Positions 47,795 to 56,965 of a stretch of DNA of 64,000 nucleotides are shown piece by piece. The translations under genes and the position numbers were made by a program. Origin of the DNA: Roseivirga sp. (GTDB lineage Bacteria > Bacteroidota > Bacteroidia > Cytophagales > Cyclobacteriaceae); contig JAJCYM010000002.1 in NCBI GenBank assembly GCA_029262895.1, positions 40,482 to 104,481 on the forward strand, written 5' to 3'. The notes below the pieces were generated by a model. That model saw only the letters and a list, made by a program, of their open reading frames with translations. It was not told where the DNA came from and searched no databases. Position 1 is the first letter of the stretch. Each line of letters opens with the position of its first letter.

Positions 47795-50401
47795 TTACTC
47801 ACTTCTTAAGGCATCAACAGGATTGGTAGAGGCAGTTTTAAATGTCTTTGAAATCATGGTCAGACCAGAAATGGCGAATGGAACTCCCGTAGTTATTAAA
47901 ATAACCAGCAAAGAGATGTTGACTCTATAGGCAAAACCATCCAGCCAATTCTCGATTAGGAAATAGGAAAGAGGAATGGCAATAATTGCAGCTATAGCGA
48001 TCAAACCATACACCTGTTTTGAGAGTAATACAATGATCTGAGAGACGGAGGCACCCAATACTTTTCTGATGCTGATCTCTTTCATTTTGGCTTCGATCAA
48101 AAATGTGATTAATCCAAAGAGACCCATGGATGAAATCAGGATGGCAATCAAGGTGAATAAATTAAAAATGCGGCCCATTCTCATCTCGGCGGTATATAGC
48201 TTTTGGAACCTTGTATCCAGAAATTCTGATCGGAATGGATAATTAGGAACAAATTCCTGCCATTTTCCTTCTATTCTTTCGAGCGTTTCAGGAATATTTT
48301 CTGTCCTTATTTTTATAAGAACGCGGGCAATCGATCGGCCTTTAAAGTCCTTATACATAAAGATCATTGGACCAATCTCACTGTGAAGAGATTCCATATG
48401 GAAGTCCTTTATCACCCCTCTAATTTTGGCAGGAGTGCCCAAAAATCGAAATGGGTATGGTTCATGAAGTGGATCTTCCGCATTAAAGGGGTTTTCAGCA
48501 ACGAGTAATTTGGCCATTGTTTCGTTGACCAAAATGTCATTTTCATTTGCCTGTGTGTTATTTGGGATAAAGTTATCCCCTTCGACTAATTCGAGATCCA
48601 GGAGTTGGAGATAATCTTCATCGATATAGTGTCCTGTAACCAATGCGTCAAGGTCATTATCACGGGAACGAACTCCGGCATCATCACCTCCGGGAGGACT
48701 GGTCGTAAGGCTGGCTTTCAAAACTTCAGGAATTTGAGACAGTGATTGTTTGAACTCCCTGAATTTATTGGTCATTGACAACTTCACCACTAAAATCTGT
48801 TCAGGATTATATGCCAGTGTTTTTTCCTGGACAAACCTAAGTTGTCTTTCAACCATTACGGAACAAAGAATCAGCGCTATTGAGATAATAAATTGGAACA
48901 CAACCAGACTCTTTCTGATCCGGTTTCCTCTTGACGAAGAAAGGATTTTACCCTTGATAAATTCCGTGAATTTAAACCTTGAAACGATAAGTGCCGGGTA
49001 GAGGCCGGCAATGAAGCCCAGGCATATTATTGTTGCAAACAGGATGAGAAAAAATTTCGGACTGTTGCTGTAGTCAAAATAAAGCGATTGGCCCAGGGCA
49101 AACTCGAAATAGGGTATAGCTGCTTCTAAGAGCAAGAGGGATATTGGCAAAGCAATGAAACAGGTCAGTAATGATTCTGTTAGAAACTGATAGATAAAAC
49201 TTCCTCTGCCCGCCCCAACGATTTTACGAATCCCGGCCTCCTGGCCCCTTTGCAATGCACGCGATGCTGTGAGATTAATGTAGTTTATCGTAGCCAATAA
49301 CAGTATCAAAACAGCCACGATCCCAAACATTATGATGGCTTGTTTGTCTACCACTGCAATAAGTTTATCCTGACTCTCTTGATTATAGCGGATGTCTGCG
49401 AATGAAGTAAACCGATATTCCTGGTTAATGATATAGGCATTGCTGGTGGCTTTTTCAATAATAGGGCTAAAGCTGCCTAAAAGTTGATTTCTGTTAGTTT
49501 GAGGGGATAGTAGAAAAAATGTAGTGAAGGGTGAATATGCTCCTGCGTTGAGACGATAATTGTCCGTTTTAAGCACCAGAAAATCAAACTGAAGGCTAGA
49601 ATTTTTTGGAATATCTTTGAGTACGCCTGCAACAACAAATTCTGAACGTTCATTAAGTTCTGCAATGATTTTCTTTCCGATTGGATCTTCAGTACCAAAG
49701 TACTTTTCTGCGGATTTTTCAGTGATAACCACGTTTTTGTTACTGCACAAGGCTGTCTTTGGGTTTCCAACTTTCATTTCGAAAGGAAAGAGCGTAAAGA
49801 ATGAGGAGTCAGCCAAAAGAAAATCTTCCTCAAAGTAATTTGTCTTTTGCCCCTCAATTTGCTTCACAGTAATGGTGAACTTGTTCATGGCGCAAAAGGC
49901 CATTATTTCCGGAGAGCTCTCTGCCAATACGGGCCCAAATGCCGGGTGCATACTAGGGCTAAATCCATCTTCAACCCTATTTTTGCTTTTACCTTCCAGC
50001 CTTACAATGTCCTCCTTTGTTTTTAGAAAATCATCAATCAAAAATTGATCAATAATGAACAATGAAATAAGCAGTGTGCTTGCCAGGCCAATACTCAACC
50101 CGAGAATATTGATGGCCGTAAATGCTTTGCTTTTTCCAAAACTCCTGAACGCGGTTTTCAAATAATGTTTTAGCATGGCTAGTGAATTTAAAGTTGGTAT
50201 AAAGGACCTTGGAGTGTCAAAAATATGTGGTCTGAAAGAGCGCATGATTGTCCAAACGTATAAGAGGCGCGCTTTTCTTAGCCCCCTTTCTTCCAGATTA
50301 TCCTGAAATTCTTCGTGCAGATCACCTTCCAGTTCTTCTATTCTCCTTTGCGAACAAAAAAGGCGAAAGAACTTTATCGGAAATTTTGGTGGCTGAGTCA
50401 A
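47795..50401 (-). CDS. MacB/FtsX-type duplicated ABC permease with N-terminal prefix domain (copy 1)
   Basis: EAGIRKIVGA and KEISIRKVLGAS motifs; NPVDALRSE terminus; TTG start overlaps the PadR stop. Confidence 0.88.
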   Translation of the reverse strand: MTQPPKFPIKFFRLFCSQRRIEELEGDLHEEFQDNLEERGLRKARLLYVWTIMRSFRPHIFDTPRSFIPTLNSLAMLKHYLKTAFRSFGKSKAFTAINILGLSIGLASTLLISLFIIDQFLIDDFLKTKEDIVRLEGKSKNRVEDGFSPSMHPAFGPVLAESSPEIMAFCAMNKFTITVKQIEGQKTNYFEEDFLLADSSFFTLFPFEMKVGNPKTALCSNKNVVITEKSAEKYFGTEDPIGKKIIAELNERSEFVVAGVLKDIPKNSSLQFDFLVLKTDNYRLNAGAYSPFTTFFLLSPQTNRNQLLGSFSPIIEKATSNAYIINQEYRFTSFADIRYNQESQDKLIAVVDKQAIIMFGIVAVLILLLATINYINLTASRALQRGQEAGIRKIVGAGRGSFIYQFLTESLLTCFIALPISLLLLEAAIPYFEFALGQSLYFDYSNSPKFFLILFATIICLGFIAGLYPALIVSRFKFTEFIKGKILSSSRGNRIRKSLVVFQFIISIALILCSVMVERQLRFVQEKTLAYNPEQILVVKLSMTNKFREFKQSLSQIPEVLKASLTTSPPGGDDAGVRSRDNDLDALVTGHYIDEDYLQLLDLELVEGDNFIPNNTQANENDILVNETMAKLLVAENPFNAEDPLHEPYPFRFLGTPAKIRGVIKDFHMESLHSEIGPMIFMYKDFKGRSIARVLIKIRTENIPETLERIEGKWQEFVPNYPFRSEFLDTRFQKLYTAEMRMGRIFNLFTLIAILISSMGLFGLITFLIEAKMKEISIRKVLGASVSQIIVLLSKQVYGLIAIAAIIAIPLSYFLIENWLDGFAYRVNISLLVILITTGVPFAISGLTMISKTFKTASTNPVDALRSE

Positions 50402-50736
50402 ACGGTGCCTCCTTTCAAAAGTGACTCTGGGATGTTGGACCAGAAAGATTCACGGATACCTCGTATTTCCCTTAAGGCTTTGATACCAAAGGGAGTGGGG
50501 ATAAAATGGCGTTTTCGCTTACCACCTCTTTTTTTGGTGGCTTCACCAAATTCAGACTTGAGATAGCCTTTTTTTTCTATACGGTAAAGTGCAGAATGGA
50601 CCGCACTTAGGTTGATAGGTCTACCTGTATACTGCTCGACCTCCTTTCTTACCTTGATGGCATAGGCCTCATTTTCTAAGACACAGGTGGCCAGTAAAAC
50701 CACCTCCTCAAATTCACCGAGAAACGTTCCTTTCAT
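50398..50736 (-). CDS. PadR-family transcriptional regulator (copy 1)
   Basis: LGEFEEVVLLA, LSAVHSALYRIEKKG, RGGKRKRHF winged-HTH motifs. Confidence 0.92.
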   Translation of the reverse strand: MKGTFLGEFEEVVLLATCVLENEAYAIKVRKEVEQYTGRPINLSAVHSALYRIEKKGYLKSEFGEATKKRGGKRKRHFIPTPFGIKALREIRGIRESFWSNIPESLLKGGTV

Positions 50737-50750
50737 GTTTCATGAGTATT

Positions 50751-56618: not shown

Positions 56619-56767
56619 GACAGGCCGCCCTCCAATTTGGTAACAGGAACCAGCTTCCAGAATGATTCTCTGATGCGCTTTACTTCGGTGAGTGCCTTCA
56701 AGCCTTGTTTCGAAACAAAGAAATAGCGCTTTTTCTTTCCGCCTCGTCTTGGAGAGGCCTCCGCTAA
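56385..56767. repeat. Direct repeat B (PadR 3' half plus permease 5' end)
   Basis: Partner of 53607-53989. Confidence 0.9.
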
Positions 56768-56965
56768 TTGTGAGGCAAGAAATCCTTTCCTTTCCATGCG
56801 ATAGAGTGCCGAATGAATGGCACTGAGGTTAATGTCACGAGCAGTATGTTTTTCCACTTCTCGTTTGATGGCGTTGGCGTAGGCCTGTCTGTCCTTAATT
56901 ACACAAACAGCAAGCAAGACCACTTCCTCAAATTCTCCTAAAAACGTTCCTTTCATAATTCTCAA
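56615..56965 (-). CDS. PadR-family transcriptional regulator (copy 2)
   Basis: LGEFEEVVLLA, LSAIHSALYRMERKG, RRGGKKKRYF. Confidence 0.92.
   Translation of the reverse strand: MRIMKGTFLGEFEEVVLLAVCVIKDRQAYANAIKREVEKHTARDINLSAIHSALYRMERKGFLASQLAEASPRRGGKKKRYFFVSKQGLKALTEVKRIRESFWKLVPVTKLEGGLS

What the first reader, a model, noticed from the sequence alone, without database searches (positions are those of the whole stretch)
47795..56965. Array of PadR / orphan ABC-permease units with a strongly conserved PadR-tail / permease-head junction
Seen: three 861-869 aa MacB-like permeases, each directly behind a PadR or PadR remnant, with no ATPase gene in the array. Units 2 and 3 share a 383-bp colinear repeat (53607-53989 vs 56385-56767). 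It covers 48 PadR C-terminal residues (3 differences) and 78 permease N-terminal residues (5 differences), while the permease bodies are clearly divergent. Nucleotide differences in the repeat are mostly synonymous, which points to protein-level selection rather than very recent copying. Known: PadR plus duplicated orphan permease pairs are described from Acidobacteria (ADOP) but are functionally uncharacterised. Inference: the cytoplasmic prefix domain and PadR form a cognate signalling pair, with a variable permease as sensor; the repeat may also allow swapping of permease bodies.
Basis: partly seen in the sequence, partly recalled or inferred. Interest (0 to 1): 0.65.

Follow-up and report, generated by a model that had tools for sequence, protein, structure and literature searches.

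The report
PadR-permease operons with a swapped front module
Three membrane permease genes of a huge, uncharacterised family sit behind small PadR repressor genes, and the 383-bp repeat shows that the repressor tail plus the permease's short cytoplasmic "prefix" was copied as one unit onto an unrelated permease body, which supports an already published but untested idea that prefix and repressor work as a matched pair.

Summary
The repeat 53607-53989 / 56385-56767 is 383 nt long and 88.3% identical. 37 of its 45 differences fall on third codon positions, and its edges are sharp.

It is not ancient sequence preserved by selection. Silent sites in the repeat are far from saturated (pS 0.36-0.52). 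Silent sites in the permease bodies are saturated (pS 0.87; bodies 41% aa identical). A relative's contig holds the permease-3 orthologue, with body 68% but prefix only 58% identical. The permease-3 prefix matches the permease-2 lineage instead (94%, and 83% to another species). Permease 3 is therefore a recombinant. Both copies then evolved under strong purifying selection (dN/dS 0.03-0.06).

Genome-wide in this Roseivirga there are 193 duplicated FtsX/MacB-type permeases:
- 80 carry the prefix, and 56 of those directly follow a PadR gene.
- None of the 113 prefix-less copies follows a PadR gene.
- In 13 multi-permease operons, every permease's nearest prefix belongs to an operon mate (34/34). 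The nearest body does so in only 9/34.

This supports a matched PadR-prefix module, the HAAS-PadR idea of Ravi et al. 2024, but no interaction was tested here. The scan has met this family before on other DNA. It is a known kind; the recombinational modularity and the 64-aa mini-PadR are the added value.

The parts
57012..57032 (-). Distal operator-like site upstream of PadR3. Contains TTATTTACAATTATAT and the perfect palindrome CAATTATATAATTG (57012-57025).
   Evidence: It forms a 15/16 direct repeat with the proximal site 42 nt away. The same two sites are conserved upstream of the PadR genes of relatives G018 and G001. Its role as a PadR operator is inferred.
56975..56990 (-). Proximal operator-like site upstream of PadR3 (TTATTTACATTTATAT). 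It ends 18 nt before the ATG at 56956.
56615..56965 (-). PadR3, a full-length short PadR-type winged-helix regulator (116-aa ORF; likely start is the ATG at 56956). Its stop overlaps the perm3 start (TTGA).
   Evidence: Pfam PadR 27.2 bits against a cutoff of 27. PDB 5dym E=3.7e-4. 79-81% identical to the PadR that heads the perm2 orthologue in G018 and G001.
56385..56767 (-). Repeat copy A: PadR3 tail (wing strand plus C-terminal helix, 50 codons) and the perm3 prefix (77 codons).
54033..56618 (-). perm3, a chimeric duplicated FtsX/MacB_PCD permease. Its prefix is of the perm2 lineage and its body of a separate lineage.
   Evidence: The body is 68% identical to the Logan-contig orthologue and 41% to perm2. 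The prefix is 58% identical to that orthologue, 94% to perm2 and 83% to the G001 perm2 orthologue.
53837..54031 (-). Mini-PadR, a 64-aa in-frame ORF. It keeps the PadR head (14-16 codons) joined to the tail (50 codons); 49 codons holding the recognition helix are deleted at a TTAGC/TTGC microhomology. It starts 1 nt after the perm3 stop, and its TGA overlaps the perm2 TTG start.
   Evidence: Tail: 3 nonsynonymous against 19 synonymous differences to PadR3. Head: 5 changes in the otherwise near-invariant MKGxFLGEFEEVVLLA motif. A full-length PadR sits in the same position, also after a 1-nt gap, behind the perm3 orthologue in L015.
53607..53989 (-). Repeat copy B: mini-PadR tail and the perm2 prefix.
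51231..53840 (-). perm2, a duplicated FtsX/MacB_PCD permease with a prefix-2 domain. This is the native partner of the front module.
   Evidence: The AlphaFold2 model has pLDDT 83.9. The best fold match is E. coli YbbP, 9ge6_A, E=2.4e-17.
51087..51120 (.). Perfect 14-bp stem hairpin flanked by A-run and T-run. It is a likely bidirectional terminator ending the PadR3-perm3-miniPadR-perm2 unit and the tRNA gene.
   Evidence: Sequence read; coordinates. The function is inferred.
51008..51083 (+). tRNA-Pro(GGG) on the opposite strand. It separates the two PadR-permease units.
50751..50808 (-). Two operator-like direct repeats upstream of PadR1: TTACATTTACATATAA at 50751-50766 and TTACATTTACACATAA at 50793-50808, spaced 42 nt.
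   Evidence: (family D7). Similar sites lie upstream of the PadR of G012, G016 and L015.
50398..50736 (-). PadR1, a full-length PadR-type regulator. Its stop overlaps the perm1 start.
47795..50401 (-). perm1, a duplicated FtsX/MacB_PCD permease with a prefix-2 domain. In relatives its orthologue follows the perm2 orthologue directly, without a PadR of its own.

Best explanation
The region holds two transcription units of a massively expanded Roseivirga gene family. Each unit has a small PadR repressor, preceded by paired operator-like repeats, followed by one or more duplicated FtsX/MacB-type (type VII ABC, YbbP-like) permeases. Each permease begins with a cytoplasmic helical 'prefix' of about 70 residues.

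The 383-bp repeat is the footprint of recombination. The front module of the perm2 operon (promoter and operators, PadR, prefix) was joined to the body of a different paralogue, perm3. This left a second copy of PadR tail plus prefix in front of perm2. The inner PadR is reduced to a 64-aa mini-protein that lacks its DNA-binding helices.

Since that event both copies of tail and prefix have been held by purifying selection. Across the genome the prefix is an operon-specific tag. It is kept alike among the permeases that share one PadR, partly by gene conversion. Tracts stop at the prefix/first-transmembrane-helix boundary.

The most likely mechanism is inferred, not shown. The prefix binds or otherwise controls its operon's own PadR, so the state of the permease is relayed to transcription of the operon. 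PadR represses its own promoter until it is captured or released. This would be a one-step membrane-to-DNA switch of the HAAS-PadR type. The permeases probably still borrow an ATPase encoded elsewhere.
For: Shown:
- The repeat has sharp edges.
- Silent divergence in the prefix is pS 0.36 (dS 0.49) and in the tail pS 0.52. In the bodies it is pS 0.87. 4-fold third-position identity is 19/30 against 30/114.
- Prefix and body trees disagree. The perm3 body is 68% identical to its orthologue on L015 but its prefix only 58%. That prefix is 94% identical to perm2 and 78-83% to perm2 orthologues of other species.
- PadR3 and its two operator-like sites are conserved with the PadR and promoter heading the perm2 orthologue in G018 and G001.
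- dN/dS is about 0.03 for the tail and 0.06 for the prefix.

Genome-wide:
- There are 193 permeases and 80 carry a prefix. A PadR lies directly upstream of 56 of the 80 and of 0 of the 113 prefix-less ones.
- There are 13 multi-permease operons. The nearest prefix is an operon mate for 34/34 permeases; the nearest body is for 9/34.
- Same-operon pairs have prefix identity 0.60 against body 0.34. Other pairs have 0.30 against 0.29. 4-fold silent identity is 0.50 in same-operon prefixes against a 0.29-0.30 baseline.
- The excess identity ends at residue 64-72 even when the window pair is excluded.
- DNA tracts of 80-100% identity limited to the first ~210 nt occur in at least five other operons.
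- 26/56 PadR promoters carry a >=14/16 direct-repeat pair, against 0/56 when shuffled.
- Within the orthologous lineage, PadR (79-81%) and prefix (77-80%) are far better conserved than the body (48-49%). They also exceed neighbouring ordinary genes (45-58%).

Published context:
- The HAAS-PadR dyad has been proposed, including fusions to FtsX/MacB-PCD (PMC11237479).
- Listeria PadR-type repressors autoregulate operons that encode DUF1700 and other membrane proteins (PMC6624303).
Against: - No physical PadR-prefix interaction was tested. No multimer prediction was available.
- The prefix gives no hit to Pfam HAAS-type models.
- The prefix model gives no significant fold match.
- Pairwise PadR-tail against prefix identity across operons correlates only weakly (Spearman 0.17).
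- Tail and prefix are physically adjacent, so co-conversion of adjacent DNA alone could link them.
- In relatives, the perm2/perm1 operon mates have only a modest prefix excess (46-48% against 40-44%).
- The exact sequence of rearrangements cannot be reconstructed. The remnant head is more diverged at silent sites than the tract (same-codon 2/8 against 83/115, p=0.011), so at least two events are needed.
Confidence: 0.7

Rival explanations
1. The junction is ancient shared sequence held nearly constant by protein-level selection alone. There was no copying event later than the duplication that made the paralogues.
For: Most differences in the block are synonymous, and dN/dS is 0.03-0.06.
Against: - Selection on the protein cannot hold silent sites. 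Silent divergence is pS 0.36-0.52 in the block against 0.87 in the bodies, and 4-fold identity is 63% against 26%.
- The perm3 prefix is closer to perm2 orthologues of other species (78-83%) than to its own orthologue's prefix (58%).
Confidence: 0.04
2. This is a plain tandem duplication of a PadR-permease unit, followed by very fast divergence of the permease bodies.
For: The units are adjacent and co-oriented. The bodies of perm2 and perm3 (41%) are somewhat closer than random paralogue pairs (29%).
Against: - Body silent sites are saturated while junction silent sites are not.
- The perm3 body has its own 68% orthologue in another Roseivirga, and that orthologue sits next to a separate perm2 orthologue on the same contig. 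The bodies therefore split before these species did, and the junction split after.
Confidence: 0.04
3. The prefix is homogenised within operons because it docks a shared partner other than PadR, for example a trans-encoded ATPase, or because it mediates assembly of operon-mate permeases. PadR would then be only an ordinary autoregulator.
For: - The permeases have the YbbP/MacB fold, which normally works with an ATPase.
- The prefix occupies the N-terminal position where MacB carries its ATPase domain (established knowledge of MacB architecture).
- No HAAS homology was detected.
Against: - The prefix occurs only in PadR-headed operons: 56/80 directly adjacent and most of the rest downstream in such operons, against 0/113 for prefix-less copies.
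- A handful of ATPases could not explain about 45 different operon-specific prefix types.
- Promoter, PadR and prefix moved together onto the perm3 body.
Confidence: 0.17
4. The mini-PadR is a decaying pseudogene, and the repeat is a by-product with no present function.
For: - The DNA-binding core is deleted, and the head carries 5 changes in a motif that is otherwise near-invariant.
- No other such remnant exists upstream of the 24 other PadR-less prefix permeases.
Against: - The ORF is intact and in frame, and it is bracketed by coupling-type junctions: a 1-nt gap to perm3 and a TTGA overlap with perm2.
- The tail shows 3 nonsynonymous against 19 synonymous differences. Under neutrality, nonsynonymous changes should outnumber synonymous ones about 3 to 1, given 113.5 nonsynonymous and 36.5 synonymous sites.
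- Meanwhile the head has drifted (pN 0.15 against 0.026).
Confidence: 0.2

Closest known systems
NCBIfam NF038404 'permease prefix domain 2-containing transporter' (Bacteroidota FtsX/MacB_PCD permeases)
   Same: All three permeases hit the prefix-2 domain model above its cutoff, and all have the duplicated MacB_PCD+FtsX body. A profile of the genome's prefixes finds 6728 representative clusters. Every intermediate-length hit that was scanned also carries MacB_PCD/FtsX.
   Different: The family is only a name, with no function or partner described. Shown here in addition: strict coupling to PadR, operon-specific prefixes, a recombinant member, and a mini-PadR.
HAAS-PadR-like wHTH dyad (Ravi, Aravind and co-workers, mSystems 2024, PMC11237479). 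Experimental relatives are Listeria LltR/Lmo0600 (DUF1700) and LstR/Lmo0421 (PMC6624303).
   Same: A stand-alone PadR gene lies next to a membrane protein whose N-terminus is a short cytoplasmic helical domain. The paper lists fusions to FtsX-like TM domains with MacB/PCD. The Listeria repressors autoregulate their own operons, which fits the paired operator-like repeats found here.
   Different: The prefix-2 domain gives no hit to Pfam HAAS-type models and no fold match, so homology to HAAS is unproven. The published example is an acidobacterial prefix-1 type. No signal or interaction is known for either.
ADOP (TIGR03434) with its companion acidobacterial PadR (TIGR03433)
   Same: The permease is duplicated with 8 TM helices and two periplasmic domains, no adjacent ATPase is present, a PadR gene sits in front, and the paralogous families are large.
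   Different: Scores are far below the curated cutoffs: 232-252 bits against 622, and 19-25 against 102. The prefix is of a different type and the phylum is different (Bacteroidota, genus Roseivirga).
E. coli YbbAP-TesA (PDB 9ge6; PMC12646458) and other type VII ABC systems (MacB, LolCDE, BceAB)
   Same: YbbP is the best fold match of the perm2 model (E=2.4e-17, aligned over 881 columns). MacB, LolC/E and BceB follow. BceAB is a precedent for a permease of this superfamily acting as the sensor for a transcriptional response (established knowledge).
   Different: YbbP is encoded next to its ATPase YbbA and has no prefix or PadR. BceAB signals through a histidine kinase. Here no ATPase is linked, and the proposed output is a PadR.

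Membership tests
NCBIfam NF038404 permease prefix domain 2-containing transporter | N-terminal prefix-2 domain scoring above the curated cutoff (35 bits) | tested here: met
   perm1 56.3, perm2 53.6, perm3 46.7 bits
NCBIfam NF038404 permease prefix domain 2-containing transporter | FtsX/MacB_PCD permease body behind the prefix | tested here: met
   Two MacB_PCD and two FtsX stretches in each protein. YbbP-like fold.
ADOP (TIGR03434) / padR_acidobact (TIGR03433) | Whole-protein score above the curated cutoffs (622.3 and 101.8 bits) | tested here: not met
   Permeases 232-252 bits; PadR1 19.1 and PadR3 25.1 bits
ADOP (TIGR03434) / padR_acidobact (TIGR03433) | Duplicated permease with no adjacent ATPase gene and a PadR gene in front | tested here: met
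   (3 of 193 permeases lie within 3 kb of an ABC_tran hit, none in this array)
HAAS-PadR-like wHTH dyad | Stand-alone PadR-like wHTH gene adjacent to the membrane protein | tested here: met
   PadR lies directly upstream of 56/80 prefix-bearing and 0/113 prefix-less permeases. In the window PadR1 and PadR3 overlap the permease starts by 4 nt.
HAAS-PadR-like wHTH dyad | N-terminal domain recognisable as HAAS (Pfam DUF1700/HAAS_TM, DUF1129, DUF1048 models) | tested here: not met
   No such hit for 3 window prefixes at E<=10 or for 77 genome prefixes at E<=5. A genome search with PF08006 rang nowhere, not even in control genomes, so it is uninformative.
HAAS-PadR-like wHTH dyad | Core of three consecutive helices, the third kinked at a conserved GxP motif | tested here: inconclusive
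   The AF2 model (pLDDT 78) has helices 5-14, 17-38, 40-53 and 57-65 before the TM region. The conserved residues are G25, D26, E29, A43 and an R-P at 57-58, not GxP. Foldseek gave no significant match.
HAAS-PadR-like wHTH dyad | Physical or regulatory coupling of the N-terminal domain to the PadR | not testable with these tools
   No multimer prediction or experiment was available. There is only comparative support.
Type VII ABC transporter permease (MacB/YbbP type) | 4-TM FtsX fold with a periplasmic Porter/Sabre domain, here duplicated in one chain | tested here: met
   Model pLDDT 83.9, pTM 0.74. Fold matches: 9ge6_A YbbP E=2.4e-17, MacB 5lil/5gko about 1e-15, LolCDE, BceAB.
Type VII ABC transporter permease (MacB/YbbP type) | Cognate ATPase partner | not testable with these tools
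   The genome has 40 ABC_tran hits, none linked to this array. Partnership in trans cannot be judged from sequence.
PadR family (Pfam PF03551), short single-C-helix type | PadR wHTH domain at the gathering score (27 bits), with a relative of solved structure | tested here: met
   PadR3 scores 27.2 bits, just at the cutoff. PadR1 scores 23.7, below it, but is 59% identical to PadR3. 5dym E=3.7e-4 and 4esb E=1.3e-3. The mini-PadR gives no hit.

The most novel reading that the evidence does not exclude
PadR plus prefix is a portable specificity cassette. Each operon has its own repressor, operator and prefix 'code', and recombination and gene conversion move or re-impose that code on any permease body that joins the operon. 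The 64-aa mini-PadR, with its helix tail conserved and its DNA-binding part deleted, is a selected micro-protein. It could tune the switch by heterodimerising with PadR3 or by occupying the prefix. It would then be a natural dominant-negative or decoy form of a PadR regulator.
Probability: 0.3. Interest if true: 0.65.

Novelty: new member of a known kind. Interest (0 to 1): 0.45.

Why it matters
PadR-headed, prefix-tagged FtsX/MacB permeases make up one of the largest uncharacterised gene families in Bacteroidota and Acidobacteriota. Counting the prefix-less copies as well, the duplicated permeases number 193 here, which is roughly 9% of this genome. The only functional idea in print, a HAAS-PadR membrane-to-DNA switch, is untested.

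This locus adds natural experiments:
- a chimera in which the promoter-PadR-prefix front was moved onto another body;
- genome-wide evidence that prefixes are kept matched within an operon, while the bodies in most operons are no more alike than random paralogues;
- a truncated PadR whose tail alone stays under selection.

Together these say which 70+50 residues to test for binding and specificity. They also suggest simple swap experiments. If the coupling holds, these families are banks of one-step envelope sensors with an insulation logic like that of paralogous two-component systems.

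Tried and rejected
- **HAAS homology.** Pfam scans of 3 and then 77 prefixes found nothing recurrent. A profile search against PDB sequences gave only a chance hit at E=0.56. 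Foldseek of the prefix model gave nothing below E=2. A PF08006 search of 61 Cytophagales genomes rang nowhere, controls included, so it says nothing.
- **Co-variation of PadR head or tail with prefix across 1540 operon pairs.** Correlations were weak (0.08-0.21) and confounded by adjacency. This was not used as evidence.
- **Natural PadR-prefix fusion for modelling.** The one candidate, P0235, has a garbled PadR tail. It looks like a frameshifted metagenomic call and was rejected.
- **Other PadR remnants.** None was found upstream of the 24 other PadR-less prefix permeases. The upstream similarity in the C90 operon turned out to be a G+C-rich palindromic intergenic repeat, not a PadR tail.
One 9/10 match lies 255 nt upstream of the PadR3 ATG, inside a hairpin. 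There is no enrichment genome-wide: 2/56 sense against 1/56 antisense.
- **Sigma-70 and terminator consensus scan.** No better than shuffles, and Bacteroidota promoters differ anyway.
- **Synteny with congeners.** The flanking genes are not conserved around the relatives' loci, so the order of rearrangements could not be fixed.
- **Assembly artefact.** Considered and rejected. The copies differ at 45 positions in a codon-structured way, and both reading frames are intact.

Full report
**What is there**

All relevant genes lie on the minus strand. Read 5' to 3' on that strand, the locus runs as follows.
- Two operator-like repeats (57017-57032 and 56975-56990).
- PadR3 (56615-56965).
- perm3 (54033-56618, 861 aa).
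- A 64-aa PadR remnant (53837-54031).
- perm2 (51231-53840, 869 aa).
- A perfect 14-bp hairpin (51087-51120).
- tRNA-Pro(GGG) on the other strand (51008-51083).
- Two more operator-like repeats (50793-50808 and 50751-50766).
- PadR1 (50398-50736).
- perm1 (47795-50401, 868 aa).

Each permease has two MacB_PCD and two FtsX stretches. Each also has an N-terminal NCBIfam 'permease prefix domain 2', scoring 46.7-56.3 bits against a cutoff of 35. The ADOP model is hit far below its cutoff (232-252 against 622 bits).

The AlphaFold2 model of perm2 (pLDDT 83.9) best matches E. coli YbbP (9ge6_A, E=2.4e-17). MacB, LolCE and BceB follow. PadR3 resembles short PadR regulators of known structure (5dym, 4esb). 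Names attached to database relatives place the genome in Roseivirga, order Cytophagales.

The two repeat copies are 338/383 nt identical. Of the 45 differences, 37 are at third codon positions. There are 3 amino-acid differences in the PadR tail and 5 in the permease head. Identity in register drops to about 50% within 30 nt on both sides. No ABC ATPase gene is in the array.

**The repeat is a copy, not a relic**

Nei-Gojobori counts give pS 0.36 (dS 0.49) and dN 0.028 for the prefix. For the PadR tail they give pS 0.52 and dN 0.027. For the permease bodies they give pS 0.87, which is saturated. Third positions of conserved 4-fold codons agree in 19/30 cases in the prefix and in 30/114 cases in the body. 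Protein-level selection cannot protect silent sites, so the block shares a much younger ancestor than the bodies. After the copy, dN/dS was 0.03-0.06.

**Independent proof from relatives**

- The best matches to perm2 in congeners (G001, G018, G012, G016) are 47-49% identical in the body. This is ordinary for these deep-branching species, where an aminotransferase is 45-52% and an anti-sigma factor 56-58% identical.
- The prefix of the same proteins is 65-80% identical, and their PadR is 71-81% identical to PadR3.
- A Logan contig (L015) carries a perm3 orthologue. Its body is 68% identical, but its prefix is only 58% identical.
- The G000 perm3 prefix is 94% identical to perm2 and 83% and 78% identical to the perm2 orthologues of G001 and G018.
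- Directly after the tract, perm3 returns to its own lineage's signature (KYHFKVAWRNF).

perm3 is therefore a chimera: a perm3-lineage body behind a perm2-lineage prefix.

PadR3's two upstream sites (TATTTACAATTATATAATTGG and TATTTACATTTATATGATTG) are conserved almost letter for letter upstream of the G018 PadR. The proximal one is also conserved upstream of the G001 PadR. The whole front of the perm2 operon (promoter, PadR, prefix) now drives the perm3 body.

**The mini-PadR**

It lacks 49 codons (L18-Q66 in PadR3 numbering, including the recognition helix). The deletion lies between TTGC and TTAGC microhomologies and preserves the frame. It starts 1 nt after the perm3 stop. On L015 a full-length PadR starts 1 nt after the perm3 orthologue's stop, so the remnant is positionally orthologous to that gene.

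Its 14-codon head has 5 replacements in a motif (MKGxFLGEFEEVVLLA) that is otherwise near-invariant. The head is also more diverged at silent sites than the tract (same-codon 2/8 against 83/115, p=0.011). Its 50-codon tail has only 3 replacements against 19 silent changes.

The head has drifted while the tail has not. The deletion is therefore not very recent, and the tail seems still to be under protein-level selection. The reason is not known. It could be a translational relay into the TTG start of perm2, a partner for PadR3's dimerisation helix, or a partner for the prefix. At least two rearrangements are needed to explain the locus, and their order could not be fixed.

**The pattern is general in this genome**

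- There are 193 full-length duplicated permeases, and 80 have the prefix.
- A PadR ORF ends within -30 to +200 nt upstream of 56 of the 80 prefix-bearing permeases, most often with a 4-nt overlap. It does so for none of the 113 prefix-less ones.
- The usual layout is one PadR followed by 1-5 prefix-permeases in tight succession.
- In the 13 multi-permease operons, within-operon prefix identity exceeds body identity in 12.
- Each of the 34 permeases in those operons has its nearest prefix in an operon mate. Only 9 of the 34 have their nearest body there.
- Same-operon pairs average 0.60 prefix identity against 0.34 body identity. The other 3127 pairs average 0.30 against 0.29.
- Silent 4-fold identity is 0.50 in same-operon prefixes, against 0.29 in their bodies and 0.30 in unrelated prefixes. 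Part of the likeness is therefore DNA-level homogenisation.
- The excess stops at residue 64-72 even when the window pair is left out.
- Tracts of 80-100% nucleotide identity confined to the first ~210 nt occur in at least five other operons.
- 26 of 56 PadR promoters carry a >=14/16 direct-repeat pair whose sequence differs between operons. Shuffled controls give 0 of 56.

**Reading**

Three things travel and evolve together, separately from the permease body: the repressor, its operator-like sites, and the ~70-residue prefix. That is what one expects if the prefix must match its operon's PadR.

The hypothesis that such N-terminal domains signal to an adjacent PadR is already published. It covers fusions to FtsX/MacB-PCD permeases (HAAS-PadR dyad, PMC11237479). 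Listeria PadR repressors are known to autoregulate operons that encode DUF1700 and other membrane proteins (PMC6624303).

Homology of prefix-2 to HAAS was not detectable here. The claim is therefore 'works like', not 'is a member of'. No interaction was tested. A missing ATPase gene does not show that these permeases work without one.

**Status**

The gene family and the signalling idea are known. Earlier notes of this scan describe the same family on at least seven other genomes, including matched 'handles' within arrays. What this locus adds is:
- a dated, directional recombination event;
- genome-wide evidence for concerted evolution of the prefix;
- a constrained mini-PadR.

Noticed in passing
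G000 contigs C93, C41, C99, C30, C5 (outside the window): The 113 prefix-less duplicated permeases form long head-to-tail arrays with gaps of about 0-20 nt: 16 copies on C93, 10 each on C41 and C99, 8 on C30. None has a PadR in front. How these arrays are regulated and energised is unknown.
   Followed up: partly
G000, upstream of 13 of 56 PadR genes (e.g. C19:70481, C90:40370, C74:6626); not upstream of PadR1 or PadR3 in the window: A conserved TG(T/C)AACC motif is followed about 15-16 nt later by AGTCT or AGTAT. This looks like an ECF-sigma-type -35/-10 promoter. It is present in 13/56 regions, against a mean of 0.7 in shuffles.
   Followed up: partly
window 57196-57211 (minus strand), inside the hairpin at 57186-57208: AGGCACCCAAGTTGCA is a 9/10 match to the sigma-54 -24/-12 consensus. 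It lies 255 nt upstream of the PadR3 ATG and is embedded in a 10-bp-stem hairpin behind the DnaJ-domain gene. There is no genome-wide enrichment of such sites upstream of PadR genes.
   Followed up: partly
G000 contig C90, upstream of the permeases at 59638, 62364 and 65128: A G+C-rich palindromic intergenic element of about 70 nt (GTCCCCC...GGGGGAC motifs) is repeated in front of each of the three permeases of one operon.
   Followed up: no
L015 3026-3382: In the Logan Roseivirga contig, a full-length PadR follows the perm3 orthologue after 1 nt. It has an aberrant C-terminal end (…LIPQLMVNPNGKLPDSMS) and no permease behind it, as if a rearrangement broke the unit there. A PadR-perm2-perm1 operon lies 8 kb away in inverted orientation.
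   Followed up: partly
window 45028-47670 (-): An 880-aa ORF lies directly downstream of perm1. Its only hit is a WG_beta_rep repeat, and it has no NCBIfam hit. A type I phosphodiesterase/nucleotide pyrophosphatase gene follows at 43410-45014.
   Followed up: no
window 59169-60417 (-): An ECF-type sigma factor (143 aa) is paired with an RskA_C-type anti-sigma factor (271 aa), about 2 kb upstream of PadR3.
   Followed up: no
window 41277-43091 (+): A 604-aa protein carries a Phage_base_V (VgrG/spike OB) domain.
   Followed up: no
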